DNA from: Eledone cirrhosa
Taxonomy: Eukaryota
Assembly (NCBI GenBank): GCA_964016885.1
Contig: OZ024741.1
Span: 37,262,001 to 37,326,000, forward strand
Length of the DNA: 64,000 nt
Direction of reading: 5' to 3'
Shown: in pieces, positions 3,384 to 63,198 of the stretch
Layout: the number at the start of each line of letters is the position of its first letter
Numbering within the stretch: position 1 is the first letter of the stretch
Position numbers and translations under genes: made by a program
Notes under the pieces: generated by a model
What the model saw: the letters and a program-made list of their open reading frames with translations, nothing else
Databases searched by the model: none
Told to the model about the DNA's origin: nothing

Positions 3384-5097
3384 ACAGAGGGACCAACTAT
3401 TGAGATTGACGAATATAGGGTCCAAGAGGCGATTAAGGAAATGAAAAATGGTAAGGCTGCTGGACCATCGGGGATAGTTGCTGAGATGCTGAAGGCTTCA
3501 GGGGACATAGGCACTAAACTGGTTGCATGCATCATCACTCAGGCTATATATGGTGGTGTCATACCCAAAGACTGGTGCAGCAGTATTCTCATAAATTGCT
3601 ACAAAGGTAAAGTGGATGCTCTGGAGAGGAGCAATTATAGGGGTATAAAACTGATGGATCAGGTTATGAAAGTGGCAGAAAGGATATTAGCACAACTAAT
3701 TAGAGAAAGGGTCAAACTAGATGAGAAGCAGTTTGGTTCTGTGCCTGGGAAGAGTACAACGGATGCCCTCTTCTTGGTGAGACAATTACAAGAGAGGTTC
3801 TTAGAGAAAAATAAGCCACTATACTTAGCCTTTGTTGACCTAGAGAAGGTCTTTGATAGGGTACCCCGATCTGTCACCTAGTGGTCCCTAAGGAAACTAG
3901 GTGTTGAGGAATAGCTTGTGAGGACAGTGCAAACTTTGTACAGAGGTACTGTCAGTAAAGTCAGAGTAGGAATGGAGTTTAGGGAGGAATTCCAGATACA
4001 AGTAGGAGTACATCAAGGTTCGGTCCTCAGCCCGCTCTTGTTCATGATAGTCCTCCAAGCCATAACAGAGGGGTTTAAGATTGGCTGTCCATGGGAACTT
4101 CTCTATGCTGACGATCTGGTTCTTATCGCAGAATCAGTAGAGGAGCTAGAGAATAAATTCTGGCTATGGAAACAGCAGTTGGAAGCAAGAGGACTGAGAG
4201 TGAACCTAGCTAAGACAAAAGTGTTGATGAGTAGAAAAGAGGACAAAACTCTGATTCCGTCAGGGAAATGGCCATGTTCGATATGCAGAAAAGGAACTGG
4301 CATAAATTTTATAAAATGCACACAATGCAGATCCTGGGTACACAAGAGATGTAGCGGGATAGCAGGCAAACTAACAAGTAGGGAGAAATACGTATGCAGT
4401 AGATGTACAGGGAAATTAGACAGCAGAAATCGCATTGATAGACACATTTTTCGAATGCAGGCGGGTGCTATAGAGGTGGTGAATAGCTTCTGGTACCTAG
4501 GAGATCAGATGAGCATGGGAGGGGGGTGTTCCAAGGCCATAGTATCTAGAATAAGGACGGGTTGGAAGAAGTTTAGGGAACTGCTTCCTCTGCTGACAAA
4601 GAAGGGTTTCTCCCTGCGTACAAAAGGCCGGTTATATGATGCCTGTGTGAGGAACGTGATGCTGCATAGTAGTGAGACATGGGCAGCAACTGCAGAGGAT
4701 ATGCGATGGCTGGAGAGAAATGAGGCAAGCATGCTCCATTGGATGTGCAGTGTCAATGTGCGTGAACAACCCAGCATGAATGTGCTGAAAGAGAAACTGT
4801 GTCTGAGAGGGATAGAATGTAGTGTGCGAGAGAGGAGACTGAGGTGGTATGGACATGTGATGCGCATGGAGGATGACTGATGGGTGAAGAAGTGCCAGGA
4901 AATGCCAGTTGAAGGAAGACGTGGTAGAGGTAGACCACAAAAAACATGGGCAGAGGTGGTGAGAACAGACCTCAGATCGCTGAAGCTCACGGTGGAGATG
5001 ACGAAGGAGTGTGACAAGTGCAGAGATGCTGTGCTGAATAAGACCCGTCCCACTCTTGCAAGCAGGGAAGAGCGGACGTAAAATGATGATGATGATG
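3384..5097 (+). mobile_element. 5'-truncated RTE-like LINE, subfamily A, copy 1 (RT pseudogene)
   Basis: [58 protein letters not shown]; in-frame stops at 3879, 3912, 4878; (GAT)n tail; ~30-bp candidate TSD. Confidence 0.95.
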
Positions 5098-6842: not shown

Positions 6843-7419
6843 GTGGGTGGTGTAATTCATTAGTTCTGGAAATTTCTTTCTTAAAAAAAATATTAAATGA
6901 AAGCCCCCGCCACCACTGTCACCACCCAATGCCACCCCCTAATGTGGCATCATACCATTTTGCCTGCAAGACATCAGCAGCTGCAAAAAGGAGAATCAGT
7001 CACTAGACTCTCCAAACACAGGTCTAAAAAGCTTCATTAACCAGAATCACTAAATAGAGAGATTCTAAATTAATTAAAATATACTCCAGTTAACAAATTT
7101 CTATGAACGATGCAAAAATCAAATTATTGTTATGAAAACTTTTAAAAGAATAACATATACACAAAAAATGTTTCTTTGCAGTTTTTTTTATGTATTTCTT
7201 AATATATTTATATATTTGTATATTTTTTTGGTTAATTCATTTTTCATGAAACATTAAAATTTGTGGTTTTATTAATTATTTTTGTCAATTTTAATTTTAT
7301 TTCCTGAAATATCTACTTGTATATGCAAACATGCATGCATTAGAATTTTGTGACTGGAATTAGCGTTTGTGCACTGGAATTAGCCTTTCTTTGTTTCTAT
7401 TAGATGAAAATGTAGCTAA

Positions 7420-15099: not shown

Positions 15100-17610
15100 T
15101 GTCATAAAATGCCAAAACGATTATCAGCACAGCAACAAGTAAGATAGGAACAACAAAATATGAAGACGTCGCATCTCAGAGTTGCAACACTTAATGTTGG
15201 CACTCTCAGAGGTAGATCTGCTGAAATAGCGGAGATGCTGGAGAGAAGGCATGTGAATGTGTGCTGCGTGCAAGAGGTGAGATGGAGAGGTGCCTCTGTG
15301 AGACTAGTCGTAGGCAAACATCTTAGCTATAAGCTTTTCTGGGTAGTTAAAGATGATGGGTTAGGGGGAGTAGGCATTTTCCTGGCTGCGAGATGGATCA
15401 ATAAGACAATAGAGGTAGTTTGAGTTAGTGATCGAATAATTAAGCTTAGATTAGTTGTAGGCAGGGGACTACTGACAATCTTCTCTGCCTATGCTCCACA
15501 AGCAGGCCTAGGCAAAGAAGAGAAAGACTGCTTTTACGAGCAACTTTTACAAGCAACCGCAATGACAGAGGTTGGAGACATCGTTATGCTAGCAGGGGAC
15601 TTCAATGGTCATGTTGGACAGCTCCAGGATGGTTACACTTGGGTACATGGTGGGCACGGTTACGGCTCAAAAAATGAAGAAGGAGTGAGACTTCTTGGGA
15701 TGCAAGTACACTGACTATTTGCAACACTAACTTCCAGAAACCTGCCAACCACCTAATAACCTACAAATCTGGCGAACACATGAGCCAGATTGACTTCTTA
15801 CTAGTTAGGCAGAGGGACAGGCAGATAGTGTCTAATACCAAGGCATACCCTGGGGAAGAATGTACCCCACAGCATAGGTTAGTCGTTACTGATATCTCAG
15901 TAAGCAAGAGATGGAGTGAGACATACAGGAAGGTGTGGAGAAGAAAGGTCGGGAAGCTAAAAGACCTTTCACTAAAATACAAATTTAGGAAAGCCCTTCA
16001 AGATGTGTATGACGAAAAAGAAGACGATTTAGAGACGTATGACATAGATAATAACTGGAATTTCTTACGTGACAACTTACTGCAGGCTACTGATGAAATT
16101 TGTGGCTGGAGCAGAGCTCCAACCAGACAGAGAGTGACCTGGTGGTGGAACAGCAAAGTAGATAAGGCCATTAGAGACAAAAGAAATGTCATTATGAGAG
16201 ACTGATAAATGTGGAGAACGAATGGGAGAGAGAGAAATTACCCTCAGTAGATCCGACAGAGGGACCAGCTATTGAAATTGACGAATATAGGGTCCAAGAG
16301 GCGATTAAGGAAATGAAAAATAGTAAGGCTGCTGGACCATCGGGGATAGTTGCTGAGATGCTGAAGGCATCAGGGGACGTAGGCACTAAACTGGTTGCAC
16401 GCATCATCAATCAGGCTATATATGGTGGTGTCATAGCAGTTGAGCAGTATTCTCATAAATTGCTACAAAGGTAAAGGGGATGCTCTGGAGAGGAGCAATT
16501 ATAGAGGTATAAAACTGATGGATCAGGTTATGAAAGTGGCAGAAAGGATATTAGCACAACTAATTAGAGAAAGGGTCAAACTAGATGAGATGCAGTTTGG
16601 TTTTGTGCCTGGAAAGAGTACAACAGATGCCCTCTTCTTGGTGAGAAGAGAGGTTCTTAGAGAAAAATAAGCCACTATACTTAGCCTTTGTTGACCTAGA
16701 GAAGGTCTTTGATAGGGTACCCTGATCTGTCACCTGGTGGTCCCTAAGGAAACTAGGTGTTGAGGAATAGCTTGTGAGGACAGTGCAAACTTTGTACAGA
16801 GGTACTGTCAGTAAAGTCAGAGTAGGAATGGAGTTTATTGAGGAATTCCAGGTACAAGTAGGAGTACATCAGGGTTTGGTCCTCAGCCCGCTCTTGTTCA
16901 TTATAGTCCTCCAAGCCATAACAGAGGAGTTTAAGACTGGCTGCCCATGGGAACTTCTCTAAGCTGACAATCTGGTTCTTATAGCAGAATCAGTAGAGGA
17001 GCTAGAGAATAAATTCTGGCTATGGAAACAGCAGTTGGAAGCAAAAGGACTGAGAGTGAACCTAGCTAAGACAAAAGTGTTGATGAGTAGAAAAGAGGAC
17101 AAAACTTTGATTCCGTCAGGGAAATGGCCATGTTCGATATGCAGAAAAGGAACTGGCATAAATTCTATAATATGCACACAATGCAGATCCTGGGTACACA
17201 AGAGATGTAGCGGGATAGCAGGCAAACTAACAGGTAGGGAGAAATACGTATGCAGTAGATGTACAGGGAAATTAGACAGTAGAAGTCGCATTGATAGACA
17301 CATTTTTCAAATGTAGGCAGGTGCTATAGAAGTGGTGGATAGCTTCTGGTACCTAGGAGATCAGATTAGCATGGGAAGTGGGTGTTCTGAGGCCATAGTA
17401 TCTAGAATAAGGACGGGTTGGAAGAAGTTTAGGGAGCTGCTTCCTCTGCTGATGAAGAAGGGTTTCTCCCTGTGTATAAAAGGGCGGTTATATGATGCCT
17501 GTCTGAGGAGCGCGATGCTGCATGGTAGTGAGACATGGGCAGAGACATAAGACCCATCCCACCCTTGCAAGCAGGGAAAAGCGGACGTAAAATGATGATG
17601 ATGATGATGA
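15100..17610 (+). mobile_element. RTE-like LINE, subfamily A, copy 2 (APE endonuclease + RT pseudogene, internally deleted)
   Basis: TLNVGTL, CVQEVRW, SAYAPQ, AGDFNGHVG, SQIDFLL, QHRLV (APE); RT motifs with stops and frameshifts; deletions near 16190 and 17545; (GAT)n tail. Confidence 0.95.
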
Positions 17611-20922: not shown

Positions 20923-21195
20923 CTTGGCTATACACACACTGTGTCTGTGTGTGTGCATGTGTGTATATAGATATATGTATAAGTACATATATCTATATAT
21001 ATATATATATGTACTTATACATATATCTATATACACACATGCACACAGACACACAGTGTCCCAAAGTATAAATGTCATGTTGCCAATAAGAAACACATGC
21101 ACCAGTTGCTTTCACTCCAATTTATTATAAATTTAAAAATTTATAAATTTCCAGTTGGTTTGTTGGTTCCATAACCGGATGGTTGTTCATATATT

Positions 21196-21238
21196 GTCAA
21201 AGTTCTTTCGTCACACATTCTGTGACCTCATCAGTGAC
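21196..21238 (-). ncRNA. Minimal type-I hammerhead motif (left arm)
   Basis: Exact reverse complement of 21405-21447. Confidence 0.7.
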
Positions 21239-21404
21239 TGGGGATTCTTTTCTTTGTTTTGTGCCTCTCCTTTGTTCTGTCCTACGCCATCTTGTTTTTA
21301 TGTGTTGTGTAACACATGCGCAAACTAAGCACACAACACACACAAAAACAAAATGGTGTAGGACAGAACAAAGGAGAAGCACAAAACAAAGAAAAGAATC
21401 CCCA

Positions 21405-21447
21405 GTCACTGATGAGGTCACAGAATGTGTGACGAAAGAACTTTGAC
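21405..21447 (+). ncRNA. Minimal type-I hammerhead motif (right arm)
   Basis: GTCA-CTGATGA-G-GTCACA(GAATG)TGTGAC-GAAA-GAAC-TT-TGAC: stem I 4 bp, stem II 6 bp, CUU triplet. Confidence 0.7.
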
Positions 21448-22373
21448 AATATATGCACAACCGTCCGGTTGTGGAACCAACCAACCAACCGGAAATTTAT
21501 AAATTTTTAAATTTATAATTTAATTTATAATAAATTGAAGTGAAAGCAACTGGTGCGTGTGTTTCTTATTGGCAACATGACCCTCCCAAAGTATAACAAT
21601 ATCGGTTTCAACACACGTTTTCAGATAAAGAATCTTGCTAAACAAATTCAGAAACGATATATATATGTATATATATCCCCATTTGTTCTAAATAATCTTC
21701 TCTTTGCTTTTCTAAAATAACAATCTTGTTTGTTTAATTTTGGCCGAAAAATGCTAGGATTTATAAAATGGCCTCATTGTCCCTCTTATCCTTTACCCCC
21801 CGTCCCCACTATATCATATTACGCGCTGGCTAGTTCACCCTTTCAATCACTCCCTTCTCTCTCCAAATATAAATAAACCTGTTGCGAGGTACGAATCTCA
21901 GAATTTGCAACGCTTAAAAATGGTCAGACCAAGTCGCTGCGAAGTATAATGTAAATGCCATTTTTCTTATCTCTCTCCAGCCTATCGGTCCATTCATTCA
22001 ATATCCGTATTATCGCCCAAAATCCAATCTTTGCTCTCTCTCAATGCTATTCTATAATTCTGTCTGGTTGTTTCTAAATAATCTTTTTGTATTTTAAAAC
22101 CCCATTATTCGCTTATTATTACTGTTATATGCTTCTCCAATTATGCCCCCCAAAATTCGAAAATTTCATTTAAAACCTCTCGCTAACTACCCCATTTGTT
22201 CTAAATAATCTTCTCTTTGCTAACTACCCCATACCCCTCCTCCCGCCCCAACTCTCCACCTTATTATTTGGACCAATCACAAGTCAACGGCCTATGCTAT
22301 CACTTCTGGCTGCTTTTCGATATGATGGATGGACTAAGGAATTTCTGGAGAGTCTGAAGAATCTGGACACTCG

Positions 22374-24775
22374 ATGACAATGCCAAAGATAACGACAAAT
22401 TCACCTCATGTTGCCGGACGAAAGGGCAAGGCCCCCTCCTCTTTGTGTCGGCTGCGGATGGCCAAAATAACCCCAACCCCATCCCCCTCACCCATCCCTG
22501 CGCCCCATTCTCCAAACACAATCCAAAACTTCAGAGTTGGTACCATAAATGTAGGCACCTTAAAAGGCCGCTCTAACGAGGTTGTAGAAATGCTTGAATG
22601 TAAGGAGGTTGATGTTTGCTGTATCCAAGAGACCAGGTGGAGGGGTGGGTCTGCTAGATTCATTGTGGGTAAAAAACGTTGCTATAAGCTTTTCTGGGTG
22701 GGAAATGACAATGGGATAGGTGGGGTAGGAATCATGTTAGCAGAAAAATGGGTGGATAAGATAATAGATGTAAATAGAGTAAATGACAGAATAATTAAAA
22801 TAAGATTTGTTCTAAATAGAACTACTGTGACAGTAATATCGGCATACGCGCCCCAATCCGGACTGCCTGGCGCTATAAAAGACAGATTCTATGAGACACT
22901 GATGCTCACTACCTCCCAAATAACCGACAGTGACTATACAATTATTGCTGGCGACCTAAATGGCCACGTTGGTCAACATTGTGGCGGCTATGACGGAATC
23001 CACGGAGGCTATGGGTTTGGTACTAGAAACGAGGAAGGCTCCAGAATCCTGGAATTCTGTGATGTAAATAACCTAACTATCTGTAACACTAACTTCAAAA
23101 AACGAGACAATCACTTGATCACTTACAGATCAGGGGAACATACCAGCCAGGTAGATTATATCCTTACCAGAAGACGTGACAGAGTGTCTGTTGTAAACAC
23201 TAAATCCCTCCCCCATGAAGAATGCACCTCCCAACATAGACTGATAATTAGCGACCTCATAGTCAGGACGAGACGTACTCGACAGCAGAAGAGGACTATC
23301 CTCATGAGAAAAATATGGAAGCTAAAGGACCCCACAGCCAGAAATAAATTTCAAAGCATATTACTTGATGCTTTCGACAGTAAGGAAGAGCAATTAGAGT
23401 CGTACAATATAGAGGAACAGTGGGAATTCCTGAAAGCAAACCTGCTGATGGCGGCAGATGAAGTCTGTGGCTGGAACAGGCCTGTAGGCAGAAGGAGAGT
23501 AACATGGTGGTGGAACAGTAAGGTGGAGGAGTCAATTAAGGCCAAAAAGCAGGCTTGGAAAGTATGGCGGGATGGGGGAAGTAGAGAAGACTATCAAGTG
23601 GCCAGGAGGGAAGCTAGGAGACAAGTGTACTTCGCAAGAAGGGAAGCAGAGGAAAGAAAGTTCAAGCATGTTCTACAACGCGAGGACCAAAAACGTGAGG
23701 TGTTCAGGATTGCTAGGCAATGTGTCAAGGAAAACCGTGATATTGTCGGGGAGAAGTGTGTACTTAATGATGATGGCGTACTTGCCATCACTGACGCTGA
23801 TAAGAAGGTAGCTTGGAAGTGTCACTACGAAAGGCTATTAAATGAGGAGAATAAATGGGAGAAAGACAGTCTCCCCCACATCGACTCAATAGAGGGACCA
23901 GCAGTGTTAGTCGAAGGTAGTATAATAAGTAAGGCAATCAAAGATATGAAGACGGGTAAGGCAGCTGGGCCTTCGGAAATAGTTGCTGAGATGCTGAAAG
24001 CCTCTGGAATGGTGGGACACACCATGGTCACCTGGATAGTAAACTAAGTCATACAGAATGGGGTTGTTCCGAAGGACTGGCGTAGCAGCATCATCATTAA
24101 CTGCTACAAGGGTAAAGGAGACGCCCTAGATAGGAGTAACTATAGAGGCATTAAATTAATTGACCAGGTCATGAAGGTCACGGAAAAAGTAATAGCGCAA
24201 CTAATCAGAGAGAGAATCGATCTAGATGAAATGCAGTTCGGGTTTGTGTCAGGCAAAAGTACCACAGACGCTCTTTTCATTGTACGACAACTACAGGAGA
24301 AGTACCTAGCTAAAAGTAAACCCCTAAACTTAGCTTTCGTCGACTTGGAGAAAGCCTTCGACAGAGTCCCCCGTTCCATTATCTGGTGGGCTCTTAGAAA
24401 ACTAGGTGTTGATGAATGGCTTGTGAGAGCTATACAAGCCATGTATAAAGAAACAGTGAGCAAGGTTAGAATTAACAACGAATATAGTGAAGAGTTTAGC
24501 GTAAAAGTTGGTGTTCATCAGGGCTCTGTTCTTAGCCCCCTACTATTTATTATTACCCTTCAGGCTATAACAGTGGAGTTCAAGACCGGCTGCCCATGGG
24601 AACTCCTATACGCAGATGATCTAACGCTCATAGCTGAATCAATGGCCGAGCTAGAGAAGAAATTCCAAACATGGAAGCACGGCCTAGAATCAAAAGGCCT
24701 TAAAATTAACCTGGCTAAGACTAAAGTTCTAGTTTGTAGGAAAGAAAATAAGGCGCCTGTCCCTTCTGGGAAATG
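22374..24775 (+). mobile_element. RTE-like LINE, subfamily B, copy 1 (APE + RT through YADD, 3'-deleted)
   Basis: 800-codon frame with one stop (CAA>TAA, 24045); TINVGTL, IQETRW, GDLNGHVG, SQVDYIL, FVDLEKAFD, LYADDL; ends at PSGK. Confidence 0.96.
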
Positions 24776-24868
24776 TTAACCTCGGCGGGATTTGAACTCA
24801 GAATGGCAAGGGCCGTAACTCTATGCGTCAAAGCATGGCGTCCGACCCTCTACCGATACTGCCAATCC
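24776..24868 (-). mobile_element. 5' half of a family-1 SINE
   Basis: Minus strand GGATTGGCAGTATCGG...GAGTTCAAATCCCGCCGAGGTTAA; tail missing. Confidence 0.85.
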
Positions 24869-27332: not shown

Positions 27333-27525
27333 GGCGGTGGATTGGTAGTATCGATAGAGAGTCGGACGCCATACTTTGCAGCAAAAGAGTTACGCCCCTT
27401 TATGGTCTGAGTTCAAATCCCGCTGAGGTTAACTTTGCCTTTCATCTTTACGGGGTCGATAAAAGAAAGTACTAGTAATACACTGGGATAATTGCTGGCC
27501 TTGTGCCAAAAGTAAAAACAATTAT
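27333..27525 (+). mobile_element. Family-1 SINE
   Basis: A box, B box, core and tail. Confidence 0.9.
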
Positions 27526-27547
27526 ATATATATATATATATATACAT

Positions 27548-29822
27548 GACGCTGATAAGAAGGTCGCTTGGAAGTGTCACTACGAGAGGCTACTAAATGA
27601 GGAGAATAAATGGGAGAAGGATAGTCTCCCCCAGATCGATCCAATAGAGGGACCAGCAGTGTTAGTTGAAGGTAGTATAATAAGTAAGGCAATCAAAGAT
27701 ATGAAGACGGGTAAGGCGGCTGGGCCTTCGGAAATAGTTGCTGAGATGCTGAAGGCCTCTGGAACGATGGGACACACCATGGTCACCCGGATAGTAAACC
27801 AAGTCATACAGAATGGGGTTGTTCCGAAGGACTGGCATAGCAGCATCATCATTAACTGTTACAAGGGTAAAGGAGACGCCCTAGATAGGAGTAACTATAG
27901 AGGCATTAAATTCATCGACCAGGTCATGAAGGTCACGGAAAAAGTAATAGCACAACTAATCAGAGAGAGAATTGACCTAGATGAAATGCAGTTCGGGTTT
28001 GTGTCAGGAAGAAGTACCACAGACGCTCTTTTCATTGTACGACAACTACAGAAGAACCTAGCTAAAAGTAAACCCCTATACTTAGCCTTTGTCGACTTGG
28101 AGAAAGCCTTCGACAGAGTCCCCCGTTCCATTATCTGGTGGGCTCTTAGAAAACTAGGTGTTGAATGGCTTGTGAGAGCTATACAAGCCATGTATACAGA
28201 AACAGTGAGCAAGGTTAGAATTAACAACGAATATAGTGAAGAGTTTAGCGTAAAAGTTGGTGTCCATCAGGGCTCTGTTCTTAGCCCCCTACTGTTTATT
28301 ATTGCCCTTCAGGCTATAACAGAGGAGTTCAAGACCGGCTGCCCATGGGAACTCCTATACGCAGATGATCTAACGCTCATAGCTGAATCAATGGCCGAGC
28401 TAGAGAAGAAATTCCAAACATGGAAGCACGGCCTAGAATCAAAAGGCCTTAAAATTAACCTGGCTAAGACTAAAGTTCTAGTTTGTAGGAAAGAAGATAA
28501 GGCGCCGGTCCCTTCCGGGAAATGACCATGCTCAGTGTGTAGGAAAGGCGTAGGTAGAAACTCCATTTTATGTCCCAAATGCAAAGTATGGGTGCATAAA
28601 AGATGTAGTGGGATCACAGGTAAGCTAACTAAGAACACAGATTTTACATGTGGCCGGTGCTCTGGTGCAATAAGTAGCAGCAAGTGCCCACAAAATACTA
28701 GCTCTTTCAATTGCGCAGAGGGTTCTATAGAAATAGTGGACAGCTTCCGTTACCCGGAGGACAAAATCAGCAGTGGGGGAGGGTGCTCTGAAAGTACAGT
28801 AGCTAGAGTCAGAACTGGATGGAAAAAGTTCAGAGAGCTTATACCACTATTAGCCGCTAAAGAGTTCTCCCTAAAAATGAAAGGCAGATTGTATGATGCC
28901 TGCATACGAACAGCAATGTTGCATGGCAGTGAGACCTGGGCATTGTGTGCAGAGGATATACCCAGACTAGAGAGGAACGAAGCTTGCATGCTCCACTGGA
29001 TGTGTAATAGTAATATACGTGAACGGCAAAGCATAAACGAACTAAGGAAAAAATTAGAAATAAGAGGGATCAGATGTTGTTTACTCGAGAGAAGGCTACG
29101 TTGGTATGGTCACGTGATGCGCATGAAAGATGACAGCTGTATAGCAAAGTGCAGGGCAATAAAGATAGATGGTAGCCACGGAGTAGGCAGACCCAGAAAA
29201 ACCTGGGACGAGCTGATAAATTCCGACCTCACACACTTACACCTCTCCAAGACAATGTCACTGGACCGAGACCTTTGGCGGTACTCAGTAATAGAGAAAA
29301 CCCGCCTTACCTAAATACAAAGTAAAACCTACTACAGTCAGTAGGCATCTCTAACAAAATACACCCCGTCCCACCACCCCACCCCATCCACACCGCCCCT
29401 TTCAATGTAAAGTTATGTTGGTGCCACAACATCCAGGCCGAAACAAATGAGATCGTGTAGGTGTCACGACAAAAAAAAAACACACAGTCCACGTTGTAAA
29501 TGTGGCCGTGTAGGCAACACGGTAAAAACCTCCCAGACCCACACTGTAAATGTGGTTGGTGTTAGGAAGGGCATCCAGCTGTAGAAAACCCGCCAGACAG
29601 TCCACGCTGTAATGTGGCTGTGTAGGCAACACGGTAAAAACCTCCCAGCCCCACACTGTAAATGTGGTTGGTGTTAGGAAGGGCATCCAACTGTAGAAAA
29701 CCCGCCAGACAGTCCTATGCGAGCAAGACAACCACTCTTGCCTCAAGTGGGAAAACTCCCGTCCAAACCCATGCCAGCGTGGAACATGGACGTTAAACGA
29801 TGATGATGATGATGATGATGAT
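27548..29822 (+). mobile_element. RTE-like LINE, subfamily B, copy 2 (5'-truncated; RT, PHD, 3'UTR)
   Basis: Starts at DADKKVAWK; TGG>TGA at 28523; two 3-bp deletions; 3'UTR with ~113-bp tandem duplication; (GAT)n tail. Confidence 0.96.
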
Positions 29823-60923: not shown

Positions 60924-63198
60924 CATCATCATCATCATCATCATCATCAGGTTTAGCGTCCGTGTTCCACGCTTGCATGGGTTTGGACGGGGGTTTTCCC
61001 ACTTGAGGCAAGAGTGGTTGTCTTGCTCGCATAGGACTGTCTGGCGGGTTTTCTACAGTTGGATGCCCTTCCTAACACCAACCACATTTACAGTGTGGGG
61101 CTGGGAGGTTTTTACCGTGTTGCCTACACGGCCACATTACAGCGTGGACTGTCTGGCGGGTTTTCTACAGCTGGATGCCCTTCCTAACACCAACCACATT
61201 TACAGTGTGGGGCTGGGAGGTTTTTACCGTGTTGCCTACACGGCCACATTTACAGCGTGGACTGTGTGTTTTTTGTAGTGACACCTACACGATCTCATTT
61301 GTTTCGGCCTGGATGTTGTGGGACCAACATAACTTTACATTGAAAGGGGCGGTGTGGGTGGGGTGGAGGTGGTGGGACGGGGGGGTGTTTTGATAGAGAT
61401 GCCTACTGACTGTAGTAGGTTTTTACTTTGTATTTAGGTAAGGCGGGTCTTCTCTATTACTGAGTACCGCCAAAGGTCTCGGTCCAGTGACATTGTCTTG
61501 GAGAGGTGTAAGCGTGTGAGGTCGGAATTTATCAGCTCGTCCCATGTTTTTCTGGGTCTGCCTACTCCGTGGCTACCGTCTATCTTTATTGCCCTGCACT
61601 TTGTTATACAGCTGTCGTCTTTCATGCGCATCACGTGACCGTACCAACGTAGCCTTCTCTCGAGTAAACAACATCTGATCCCTCTTATTTCTAATTTTTT
61701 CCTTAGTTCGTTTATGCTTTGCCGTTCACGTATATTACTATTGCACATCCAGCGGAGCATGCAAGCTTCGTTCCTCTCTAGTCTGCGTATATCCTCTGCA
61801 CACAATGCCCAGGTCTCACTGCCATGCAGCATTGCTGTTCGTATGCAGGCATCGTATAACCTGCCTTTCATTTTTAGGGAGAACCCTCTAGCGGCTAATA
61901 GTGGTATAAGCTCTCTGAACTTTTTCCATCCAGTTCTGACTCTAGCTACTGTACTTTCAGAGCACCCTCCCCCACTGCTGATTTTGTCACCCAGATAACG
62001 GAAGCTGTCCACTATTTCTATAGAACCCTCTGCGCAGTTGAAGGAGCTAGTATTTTGTGGGCACTTGCTGCTACTTATTGCACCAGAGCACCGGCCACAT
62101 GTAAAATCTATGTTCTTAGTTAGCTTACCTGTGATCCCACTACATCTTTTATGCACCCATACTTTGCATTTGGGACATAAAATGGAGTTTCTACCTACGC
62201 CTTTCCTACACACTGAGCATGGCCATTTCCCAGATGGGACCGCCGCCTTATTTTCTTTCCTACAAACTAGAACTTTAGTCTTAGCCAGGTTAATTTTAAG
62301 GCCTTTTGATTCTAGGCCGTGCTTCCATGTTTGGAATTTCTTCTCTAGTTCGGTCATTGATTCAGCTATGAGCGTTAGATCATCTGCGTATAGGAGTTCC
62401 CATGGGCAGCCGGTCTTGAACTCCTCTGTTATAGCCTGAAGGGCAATAATAAATAGTAGGGGGCTAAGAACAGAGCCCTGATGGACACCAACTTTTACGC
62501 TAAACTCTTCACTATATTCGTTGTTAATTCTAACCTTACTGACTGTTTCTTTATACATGGCTTGTATAGCTCTCACAAGCCATTCGTCAACACCTAGTTT
62601 TCTAAGAGACCACCAGATAATGGAACGGGGGACTCTGTCGAAGGCTTTCTCCAAGTTGACGAAAGCTAAGTATAGGGGTTTACTTTTAGCTAGGTACTTC
62701 TCCTGTAGTTGTCGTACAATGAAAAGAGCGTCTGTGGTACTTTTGCCTGACACAAACCCGAACTGCATTTCATCTAGATCAATTCTCTCTCTGATTAGTT
62801 GCGCTATTACTTTTTCCGTGACCTTCATGACCTGGTCGATTAATTTAATGCCTCTATAGTTACTCCTATCTAGGGCATCTCCTTTTCCTTTATAGCAGTT
62901 AACGATGATGCTGCTACGCCATACCTTCGGAACAACCCCATTCTGTACGACTTGGTTAACTATCCGGGTGACCATGGTGTGTCCCACCGAACCAGATGCC
63001 TTCAGCATCTCAGCAACTATTTCCGAAGGCCCAGCCGCCTTACCCGTCTTCATATCTTTGATTGCCTTACTTATTATACTACCTTCAACTAACACTGCTG
63101 GTCCCTCTATTGGATCGATCTGGGGGAGACTGTCTTTCTCCCATTTGTTCTCCTCATTTAGAAGCCTTTCGTAGTGACACTTCCAAGCTACCTTCTTA
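60924..63198 (-). mobile_element. RTE-like LINE, subfamily B, copy 3 (stop-free RT-PHD-C-terminus, 3'UTR, tail)
   Basis: Open from KKVAWK to EKTRLT* (61434); motif A reads FVNLEKAFD; same duplicated 3'UTR as copy 2. Confidence 0.97.

What the first reader, a model, noticed from the sequence alone, without database searches (positions are those of the whole stretch)
21059..21596. Palindromic 508-bp element with identical hammerheads on both strands and a 13-bp flanking duplication
Seen: ~240-bp inverted arms around a 20-bp spacer. Each arm has GTCA-CTGATGA-G-GTCACA(GAATG)TGTGAC-GAAA-GAAC-TT-TGAC, then AATAAA and a GT-rich end, pointing outward. The 43-nt motifs are identical while surrounding arm sequence has several mismatches. 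TCCCAAAGTATAA lies 2 bp outside each end. No credible protein is encoded. Known: PLEs carry minimal type-I hammerheads thought to act as dimers, and often have inverted pseudo-LTRs; retrozymes are non-coding hammerhead retroelements with direct repeats. Inference: either a heavily truncated PLE insertion, or a non-autonomous ambisense ribozyme element whose transcript from either strand is a rod-like hairpin holding a ribozyme and its own antisense inhibitor. Best novel-system candidate in the window.
Basis: partly seen in the sequence, partly recalled or inferred. Interest (0 to 1): 0.8.

Follow-up and report, generated by a model that had tools for sequence, protein, structure and literature searches.

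The report
Head-to-head Penelope retrotransposon remnant with hammerheads
This palindrome is two truncated ends of an abundant Penelope-like jumping gene lying back to back, not a new ribozyme element; some sister copies carry clustered A-to-G changes, likely RNA-editing scars, which suggest both halves of such pairs are copied from the sense RNA.

Summary
The palindrome and both minimal hammerheads are real; the 'target duplication' is not. The 13-mer is element sequence (codons 3-7 of the ORF start MTLPKYNN...), and its left copy is a micro-inversion unique to this locus. The arms are the pseudo-LTR of an abundant RT+GIY-YIG Penelope-like family (6,372 exact hammerhead matches; a 995-aa open frame in L041). 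Head-to-head pairs are this family's normal product: 38 of 74 sampled loci have one. Centres differ, so the palindrome does not spread as a unit. Opposite-strand hammerhead pairs in PLEs are already in print.

The family adds three mechanistic traces. (1) 37 of 39 pairs have one short and one tailed end; both ends lie at an AATAT^C motif, 60 nt apart. (2) 5' ends cluster about 60-75 nt upstream of the hammerhead, a likely transcription start; 0 of 97 lie at the ribozyme cut. (3) Seven loci carry sense-strand A-to-G clusters in ADAR-like context, and in two pairs both arms share them. This favours a sense RNA template for both arms, an open point in PLE biology. The window's own arms are unedited. 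Verdict: ordinary PLE remnant, useful family.

The parts
21074..21310 (-). Left arm: 5'-truncated pLTR copy (reference 3532-3780), without tail
21315..21657 (+). Right arm: 5'-truncated pLTR copy (reference 3511-3856), with tail
21405..21447 (+). Minimal type-I hammerhead: stem I 4 bp, CUGAUGA, extra G, stem II 6 bp, GAAA, 2-bp stem III with AA loop; predicted cut after 21443
21196..21238 (-). Identical hammerhead on the left arm; predicted cut after 21200
21577..21657 (+). First 27 codons of the PLE ORF (MTLPKYNN...QIQKR), part of the pLTR
21584..21596 (+). Right 13-mer: ordinary element sequence, not a TSD
21059..21071 (+). Left 13-mer: end of the left arm in flipped orientation (micro-inversion or extra template switch), unique to this locus
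21603..21657 (+). PLE 'tail' between the family's two 3' end points (short end at 21602, tailed end at 21657 plus AATAT microhomology in other copies)
21285..21293 (-). AAGATGGCG, YY1-type motif just downstream of the family's 5'-end hotspot (changed to AAAATGGTG in the right arm, 21350-21358); promoter role inferred
21658..21676 (.). (TA)n-like target remnant at the right junction
20937..21058 (.). 122-bp host palindrome centred on (TA)n, abutting the left junction; not shown to be caused by the insertion

Best explanation
The element is a head-to-head pair of two 5'-truncated pseudo-LTR copies of an abundant RT+GIY-YIG Penelope-like retrotransposon, likely made in one insertion in which both strands of a (TA)n target primed reverse transcription on the same sense RNA. 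Shown: family identity, ORF start inside the arm, one short plus one tailed end per pair, an AATAT^C motif at both end points, (TA)n flanks, variable centres. Inferred: (1) the endonuclease cuts both strands of (TA)n; (2) each 3'-OH anneals to one of two AAUAU motifs 60 nt apart in the start of the ORF, which gives the tail on one arm only; (3) each cDNA runs towards the RNA 5' end, often running off at a pLTR transcription start about 60-75 nt upstream of the hammerhead, which is why 500-640-bp palindromes recur; (4) the two cDNA ends are joined by microhomology. The hammerhead is the family's pLTR ribozyme, carried along; uncut RNA is likely the template. Read-through of such pairs would form long duplexes that ADAR edits, and edited RNAs are sometimes re-inserted.
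For: Own-genome search: 84 matches, full palindromes and single arms. 6,372 exact matches of a hammerhead 33-mer and 24,161 of a 3' 30-mer, reversed controls 0. Upstream of single arms lies an ORF; L041 has a 995-aa frame with GIY-YIG above Pfam's cut-off (23.4 vs 22.6 bits) and RVT_1 at E 6e-5; Atlas hits 0.96-0.97 to RT/GIY-YIG clusters. In 20 of 30 loci fetched with the 5' body, MTLP... begins a frame in the upstream pLTR, most running on into the body. In 74 loci from the first 20.8 Mb of contig C1, 38 hold a divergent pair and 37 of 39 pairs are short/tailed; all loci, selected ones included: 75 of 86. AATATC sits at both end points, 60 nt apart; 209 of 243 short or tailed ends are followed by (TA)4+. 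Arms of a pair agree at 469 of 505 polymorphic positions versus 64% for random arms. 5' ends at reference 3534-3552: 12 of 97, 2.8 expected, corrected p 6e-4; 16 of 60 in a second sample; 0 of 97 at the ribozyme cut. A-to-G clusters: 3 of 167 loci, none for T-C, G-A or C-T; forced A-G pattern 22 matches, T-C control 0; 7 of those 18 loci have 13-159 A-G changes in differing patterns; 5'-G depleted (30/133, p 1.5e-5) and 3'-G enriched. Short/tailed pairs L174 and L195 share 26 of 29 and 17 of 19 edits between arms, all A-G in element sense. Literature: inverted truncated copy and tail (PMC8557442), two RT start sites and two-strand extension (PMC11167929), opposite-strand min-HHR pairs 100-700 bp apart (PMC4209133).
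Against: The window's arms agree at only 9 of 12 polymorphic sites, so here two templates are possible. Its right arm starts about 20 nt upstream of the hotspot, and its left end is rearranged. Among pLTRs upstream of a 5' body only 1 of about 22 starts in the hotspot (by eye). The hotspot lies in a CA/A-rich stretch, so microhomology could bias it; no transcript data back the start site. In vitro the anole PLE primes at a site not homologous to the cut DNA (PMC11167929), unlike the AATAT microhomology proposed here. RVT_1 stays under Pfam's cut-off; no tree was built. 11 of the 18 loci have 7 or fewer A-G changes in the pLTR and are not clearly edited; the T-C control is not context-matched (it creates a CpG). 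Before restriction to edited intervals the 5'-G depletion was absent. PMC5625713 reports a downstream-A preference for invertebrate ADARs, whereas I find downstream G. Shared edits could also come from gene conversion between arms or from an edited source copy. The window's own arms show no edits.
Confidence: 0.9

Rival explanations
1. A non-autonomous ambisense ribozyme element that spreads as a whole palindrome through a rod-like hairpin RNA, mobilised by the PLE protein.
For: Short double-hammerhead palindromes recur (20 seen, 5 in 74 unselected loci); the full element folds into one rod at -381 kcal/mol; duplex RNA of this region seems to exist in vivo.
Against: Centres, arm lengths and tail polarity vary; no TSD; a copied hairpin would show T-C on one arm, and no T-C cluster was found in 285 segments or by pattern. 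Power is limited: only 7 edited loci.
Confidence: 0.04
2. Same PLE origin, but the inverted arm arises by self-priming on an antisense template (proposed in PMC3846280) or by fold-back of the first cDNA.
For: Arms of a pair nearly always come from the same source; small palindromes at some centres; a fold-back copy of cDNA would also share edits.
Against: Edits are A-G in element sense, never T-C, against an antisense RNA template. The inverted arm carries the tail in 13 of 37 and lacks it in 24 of 37 pairs as they lie on the contig, and either the longer or the shorter arm can hold it; a fold-back copy cannot gain 55 nt that the first cDNA lacks.
Confidence: 0.2
3. A single arm was duplicated in inverted form after insertion by DNA repair, or the palindrome is an assembly artefact.
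For: Local inverted duplications are common near (TA)n in this genome (24 of 195 control flanks); L143 (tailed/tailed, identical arms) looks like such a case; the left end here abuts a host palindrome.
Against: The arms differ at 11 positions and a 12-nt indel, start at different points, and fit the short/tailed rule.
Confidence: 0.05

Closest known systems
Canonical EN+ Penelope-like elements, Neptune/Nematis type (PMC8557442, passages)
   Same: RT followed by GIY-YIG, CX2-5CxxC linker, pLTR, inverted 5'-truncated copy, tail on one end, microsatellite target
   Different: Tail is 55-60 nt rather than 30-40; both end points share AATAT^C; clade not placed on a tree
Minimal type-I hammerheads of metazoan PLEs (PMC4209133, parts 1-2 of 4)
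   Same: Short helix I, long helix II, extra base between 9 and 10.1, G10.1-C11.1, pairs on opposite strands 100-700 bp apart
   Different: Loop 3 is AA or GA, not palindromic; position 17 is U or A
Anole Poseidon PAc in vitro (PMC11167929, parts 1-2 of 4)
   Same: Two RT start sites in the start of the ORF define the tail; both strands extended; AT-rich target; uncut RNA is the substrate
   Different: Here the start sites carry microhomology to the (TA)n target; the hammerhead lies about 170 nt upstream of the ATG rather than overlapping it
Animal non-LTR retrozymes (bioRxiv 10.64898/2026.07.22.740005, part 1 of 5)
   Same: pLTR-derived, non-coding, type-I hammerhead
   Different: Those are tandem direct repeats; this is an inverted pair and does not amplify as a unit

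Membership tests
EN+ Penelope-like element | One ORF with RT and C-terminal GIY-YIG | tested here: met
   In sister copy L041: (RVT_1 below its cut-off); absent from the window copy by truncation
EN+ Penelope-like element | CCHH motif with two Cys inside the GIY-YIG core | tested here: met
   VVYSIRC-X4-C...VYIG with later His residues, read by eye
EN+ Penelope-like element | pLTR from partial tandem, including the ORF start | tested here: met
EN+ Penelope-like element | Inverted 5'-truncated copy and tail on one end | tested here: met
   37 of 39 pairs; window pair
EN+ Penelope-like element | RT groups with PLE/telomerase RTs in a tree | not tested
   No reference PLE sequences were fetched
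Neptune/Nematis type | CX2-5CxxC linker before the endonuclease | tested here: met
   CIDKKCITC; Neptune versus Nematis not resolved
Minimal type-I hammerhead | Catalytic core, G10.1-C11.1, extra base 9/10.1, helix I 4-5 bp | tested here: met
   in 77 arms not selected on the motif, common variants fall at position 7, loop 2, loop 3 and position 17
Minimal type-I hammerhead | Palindromic loop 3 | tested here: not met
   15.2-16.2 is G-C but the loop is AA/GA
Minimal type-I hammerhead | Self-cleavage | not testable with these tools
   No assay; 0 of 97 5' ends at the cut
Non-LTR retrozyme | Tandem direct repeats, a hammerhead in each unit | tested here: not met
LTR retrozyme | Type-III hammerhead in direct LTRs, 4-bp TSD | tested here: not met
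MITE/foldback or self-propagating palindrome | Copies share ends and centre, with locus-specific TSDs | tested here: not met
Ambisense viroid-like circular RNA | Circular RNA of both polarities | not testable with these tools
   Needs stranded RNA data

The most novel reading that the evidence does not exclude
This PLE family preserves a fossil record of its own mechanism: ADAR-type A-to-G clusters act as molecular barcodes showing that both arms of a head-to-head insertion are copied from one sense RNA molecule, primed at two AAUAU sites by the two strands of a cut (TA)n, while read-through of palindromes like this one supplies the duplex RNA that gets the ribozyme core edited and inactivated in the germ line.
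Probability: 0.55. Interest if true: 0.65.

Novelty: new member of a known kind. Interest (0 to 1): 0.42.

Why it matters
The locus itself is one of thousands of PLE remnants. The family matters because how PLEs form inverted pLTRs and tails is called unresolved in PMC8557442, and PMC3846280 left sense versus antisense template open. Strand-specific editing scars and the short/tailed rule make this testable from the genome alone, and support in vivo what PMC11167929 saw in vitro. Four searches (listings only, open-licence library) showed no paper on ADAR-edited genomic PLE copies; PMC5625713 reports heavy editing of lizard Penelope at RNA level.

Tried and rejected
Rfam: no hammerhead family hit, only sub-threshold miRNA hairpin models. 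Single-hammerhead fold is not more stable than shuffles (z -0.2 to -0.7). Idea that insertion creates inverted duplications of host flank: rejected, 40 of 247 flanks versus 24 of 195 controls, p 0.28, many hits being (TA)n noise. Idea that ribozyme cutting defines 5' ends: 0 of 97; two second arms start at or near the cut (L085, L087), not distinguishable from chance. Idea that the identical 43-mers show selection at this locus: not significant. Pfam on the C-terminal 308 aa and on the 898-aa piece missed GIY-YIG; it appeared only with the domain alone. No RNA holder listed. No listed contig spans the locus, so the junctions are neither confirmed nor refuted by those runs. Earlier findings: none. 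One search crashed after printing the pair counts and was rerun. Dropped rows: L102 and L103 (duplicates of L100, L101); L143 (tailed/tailed) not used as evidence for shared template; L104, L004 (distant families) and edited loci left out of the yardstick. Supplements of the cited papers were not read and may list this family or its hammerhead.

Full report
Observation. The palindrome is there: arms of 94-95% complementarity with a 12-nt indel, and an identical 43-nt hammerhead motif on each strand. The motif has a 4-bp stem I, CUGAUGA, an extra G, a 6-bp stem II, GAAA and a 2-bp stem III, the layout that PMC4209133 (parts 1-2 of 4 read) gives for minimal PLE hammerheads. That paper also reports pairs of such motifs 100-700 bp apart on opposite strands and links them to truncated PLEs. 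Rfam does not recognise the motif.

Family. A search of the own genome (3.0 Gb; it looks octopus-like to me from a recalled SINE tail, untested) gave 84 matches among 40 scored candidates of 3,814: full palindromes and single arms. Exact pattern counts are 6,372 for a hammerhead 33-mer and 24,161 for a 3' 30-mer. Upstream of single arms lies coding sequence. L041 holds a 995-aa open frame with YVDD, a CX4CX2C linker and a GIY-YIG domain with internal cysteines, and an inverted truncated copy of 98.7% identity; Pfam gives GIY-YIG above cut-off and RVT_1 at E 6e-5, the Atlas RT/GIY-YIG clusters. By the features in PMC8557442 (passages) this is a canonical C-terminal-EN PLE of Neptune/Nematis type. 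I built no tree. Coordinates 'ref' below are on the natural copy L041:3121-6976.

The 'TSD'. Other copies run through TCCCAAAGTATAA to ...CAGAAACGA and then (TA)n. The stretch 21577-21657 translates as MTLPKYNNIGFNTRFQIKNLAKQIQKR, and in tandem copies this continues into the ORF body. So the right 13-mer is element sequence. Other inverted arms end with its reverse complement; here it is flipped, and that junction is found once in the genome. The true span is about 21059-21657.

Head-to-head pairs are the normal product. I fetched all loci behind the first 100 listed matches of each of the two patterns on contig C1. In the 74 loci within the first 20.8 Mb, 38 hold a divergent pair, with arm lengths from about 50 nt to kilobases. 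Arm 3' ends fall at ref 3801 or about 3856, and 37 of 39 pairs have one of each. Contigs of public runs also break off into (AT)n behind 21602, the short end (27 in X1, which may be the source sample, 1 in X5). Both end points sit at AATAT^C, 60 nt apart in the ORF start, and 209 of 243 ends are followed by (TA)n. PMC11167929 (parts 1-2 of 4) showed in vitro that a PLE protein cuts and extends both strands and starts at two internal RNA sites that bound the tail. Two cDNAs primed from the two sides of a break give exactly this geometry (inference). Arms of one pair agree at 469 of 505 polymorphic positions against 64% at random; the window pair agrees at 9 of 12.

Why palindromes of this size recur. 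12 of 97 5' ends fall in ref 3534-3552 (2.8 expected; corrected p 6e-4), and 16 of 60 in a second, hammerhead-anchored sample. The cluster lies just upstream of AAGATGGCG, given as a YY1 motif in PMC4871433 (one passage), with a GCGCATGCGC-like motif further up (NRF1-like, recalled). PLE transcription starts lie in the pLTR (PMC8557442). I infer run-off at the RNA 5' end; a microhomology bias in this CA-rich stretch is not excluded. When both arms stop there, a 430-640-bp palindrome with two hammerheads results. Of 20 such palindromes, only L080 and L105 share a centre, with the tail on opposite arms. They are independent products, not a subfamily.

The ribozyme. In 77 arms not selected on the motif, common variants fall at position 7, loop 2, loop 3 and position 17 (U or A), not in the core or stems, which suggests selection in the source elements. 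No 5' end of 97 lies at the cut, in line with uncut RNA as substrate (PMC11167929). As a monomer it is predicted to be nearly inactive (PMC4209133), and in a read-through hairpin it would be fully paired.

Editing scars. 3 of 167 loci had segments dominated by A-to-G in element sense; none by T-C, G-A or C-T. A pattern forcing two A-G changes found 22 matches at 18 loci; a T-C control found 0. Seven loci have 13 to 159 such changes in differing patterns; 11 have 7 or fewer in the pLTR. In six the cluster starts at ref 3520-3583 and, where the copy reaches into the ORF, leaves it untouched; L199 is changed over 970 nt (159 of 171 substitutions). Within edited intervals a 5' G is depleted and a 3' G enriched; 5'-G depletion is the shared ADAR mark in PMC5625713 (passages), though that paper gives downstream A for invertebrates, and my first, unrestricted count showed no depletion. 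Edits hit core positions A6, A9, A13, A14 and A15.1 in several copies. In two short/tailed pairs both arms share the edits, 26 of 29 and 17 of 19. A palindrome copied whole from a hairpin RNA would show T-C on one arm, and an antisense template, as proposed in PMC3846280 (passages), T-C on both. Neither is seen. Gene conversion between arms or an edited source copy could also give shared edits. The duplex partner is most simply an inverted arm in the same read-through transcript (inference). The window's arms are unedited, and nothing here shows that this locus is transcribed.

Verdict. The finding is an ordinary head-to-head PLE remnant of a known kind; retrozyme, MITE and ambisense-element membership fail. 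Identity about 0.9; the two-primer sense-RNA mechanism about 0.65; the transcription-start reading about 0.55. The interest lies in the family-level traces, which make an open mechanistic question testable.

Noticed in passing
L143, L174, L190, L195, L199, L200, L202 (e.g. L199:552-1712, G000:C4 near 373,952,000): Genomic PLE copies with sense-strand A-to-G clusters in ADAR-like context; likely edited RNAs that were re-inserted.
   Followed up: yes
reference 3598-3609 (L046, L048, L138, L139, L141, L158, L174): A second, smaller cluster of 5' ends (7 of 97) at the 5' edge of the hammerhead; unexplained.
   Followed up: no
window 33485-57211: 24-kb satellite array, 42-bp unit, about 565 copies, 87% matches, extreme C-over-G skew.
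   Followed up: no
window 20937-21058: 122-bp near-perfect host palindrome centred on (TA)n directly beside the left junction; such duplications are common near (TA)n in this genome.
   Followed up: partly
window 22338-24779 and 27479-29314: Two broken copies of an APE-endonuclease/RT LINE, by eye from the translations; a shorter endonuclease piece at 15678-16205.
   Followed up: no
window 21677-21708 and 22190-22221: Exact 32-nt direct repeat 513 nt apart just right of the element, possibly another repeat family.
   Followed up: no
window 29484-29715 and 61034-61265: 112-bp two-copy tandem units of a SINE-like repeat, on opposite strands.
   Followed up: no
L043:8063-8899, L104:245-1339, L158:2917-3169: Distant sister PLE families (67-76% DNA identity), one with a related hammerhead (L043, minus strand near 7305).
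   Followed up: no
L058:3242-7701: 310-bp tandem array with a large inversion beside a PLE copy.
   Followed up: no
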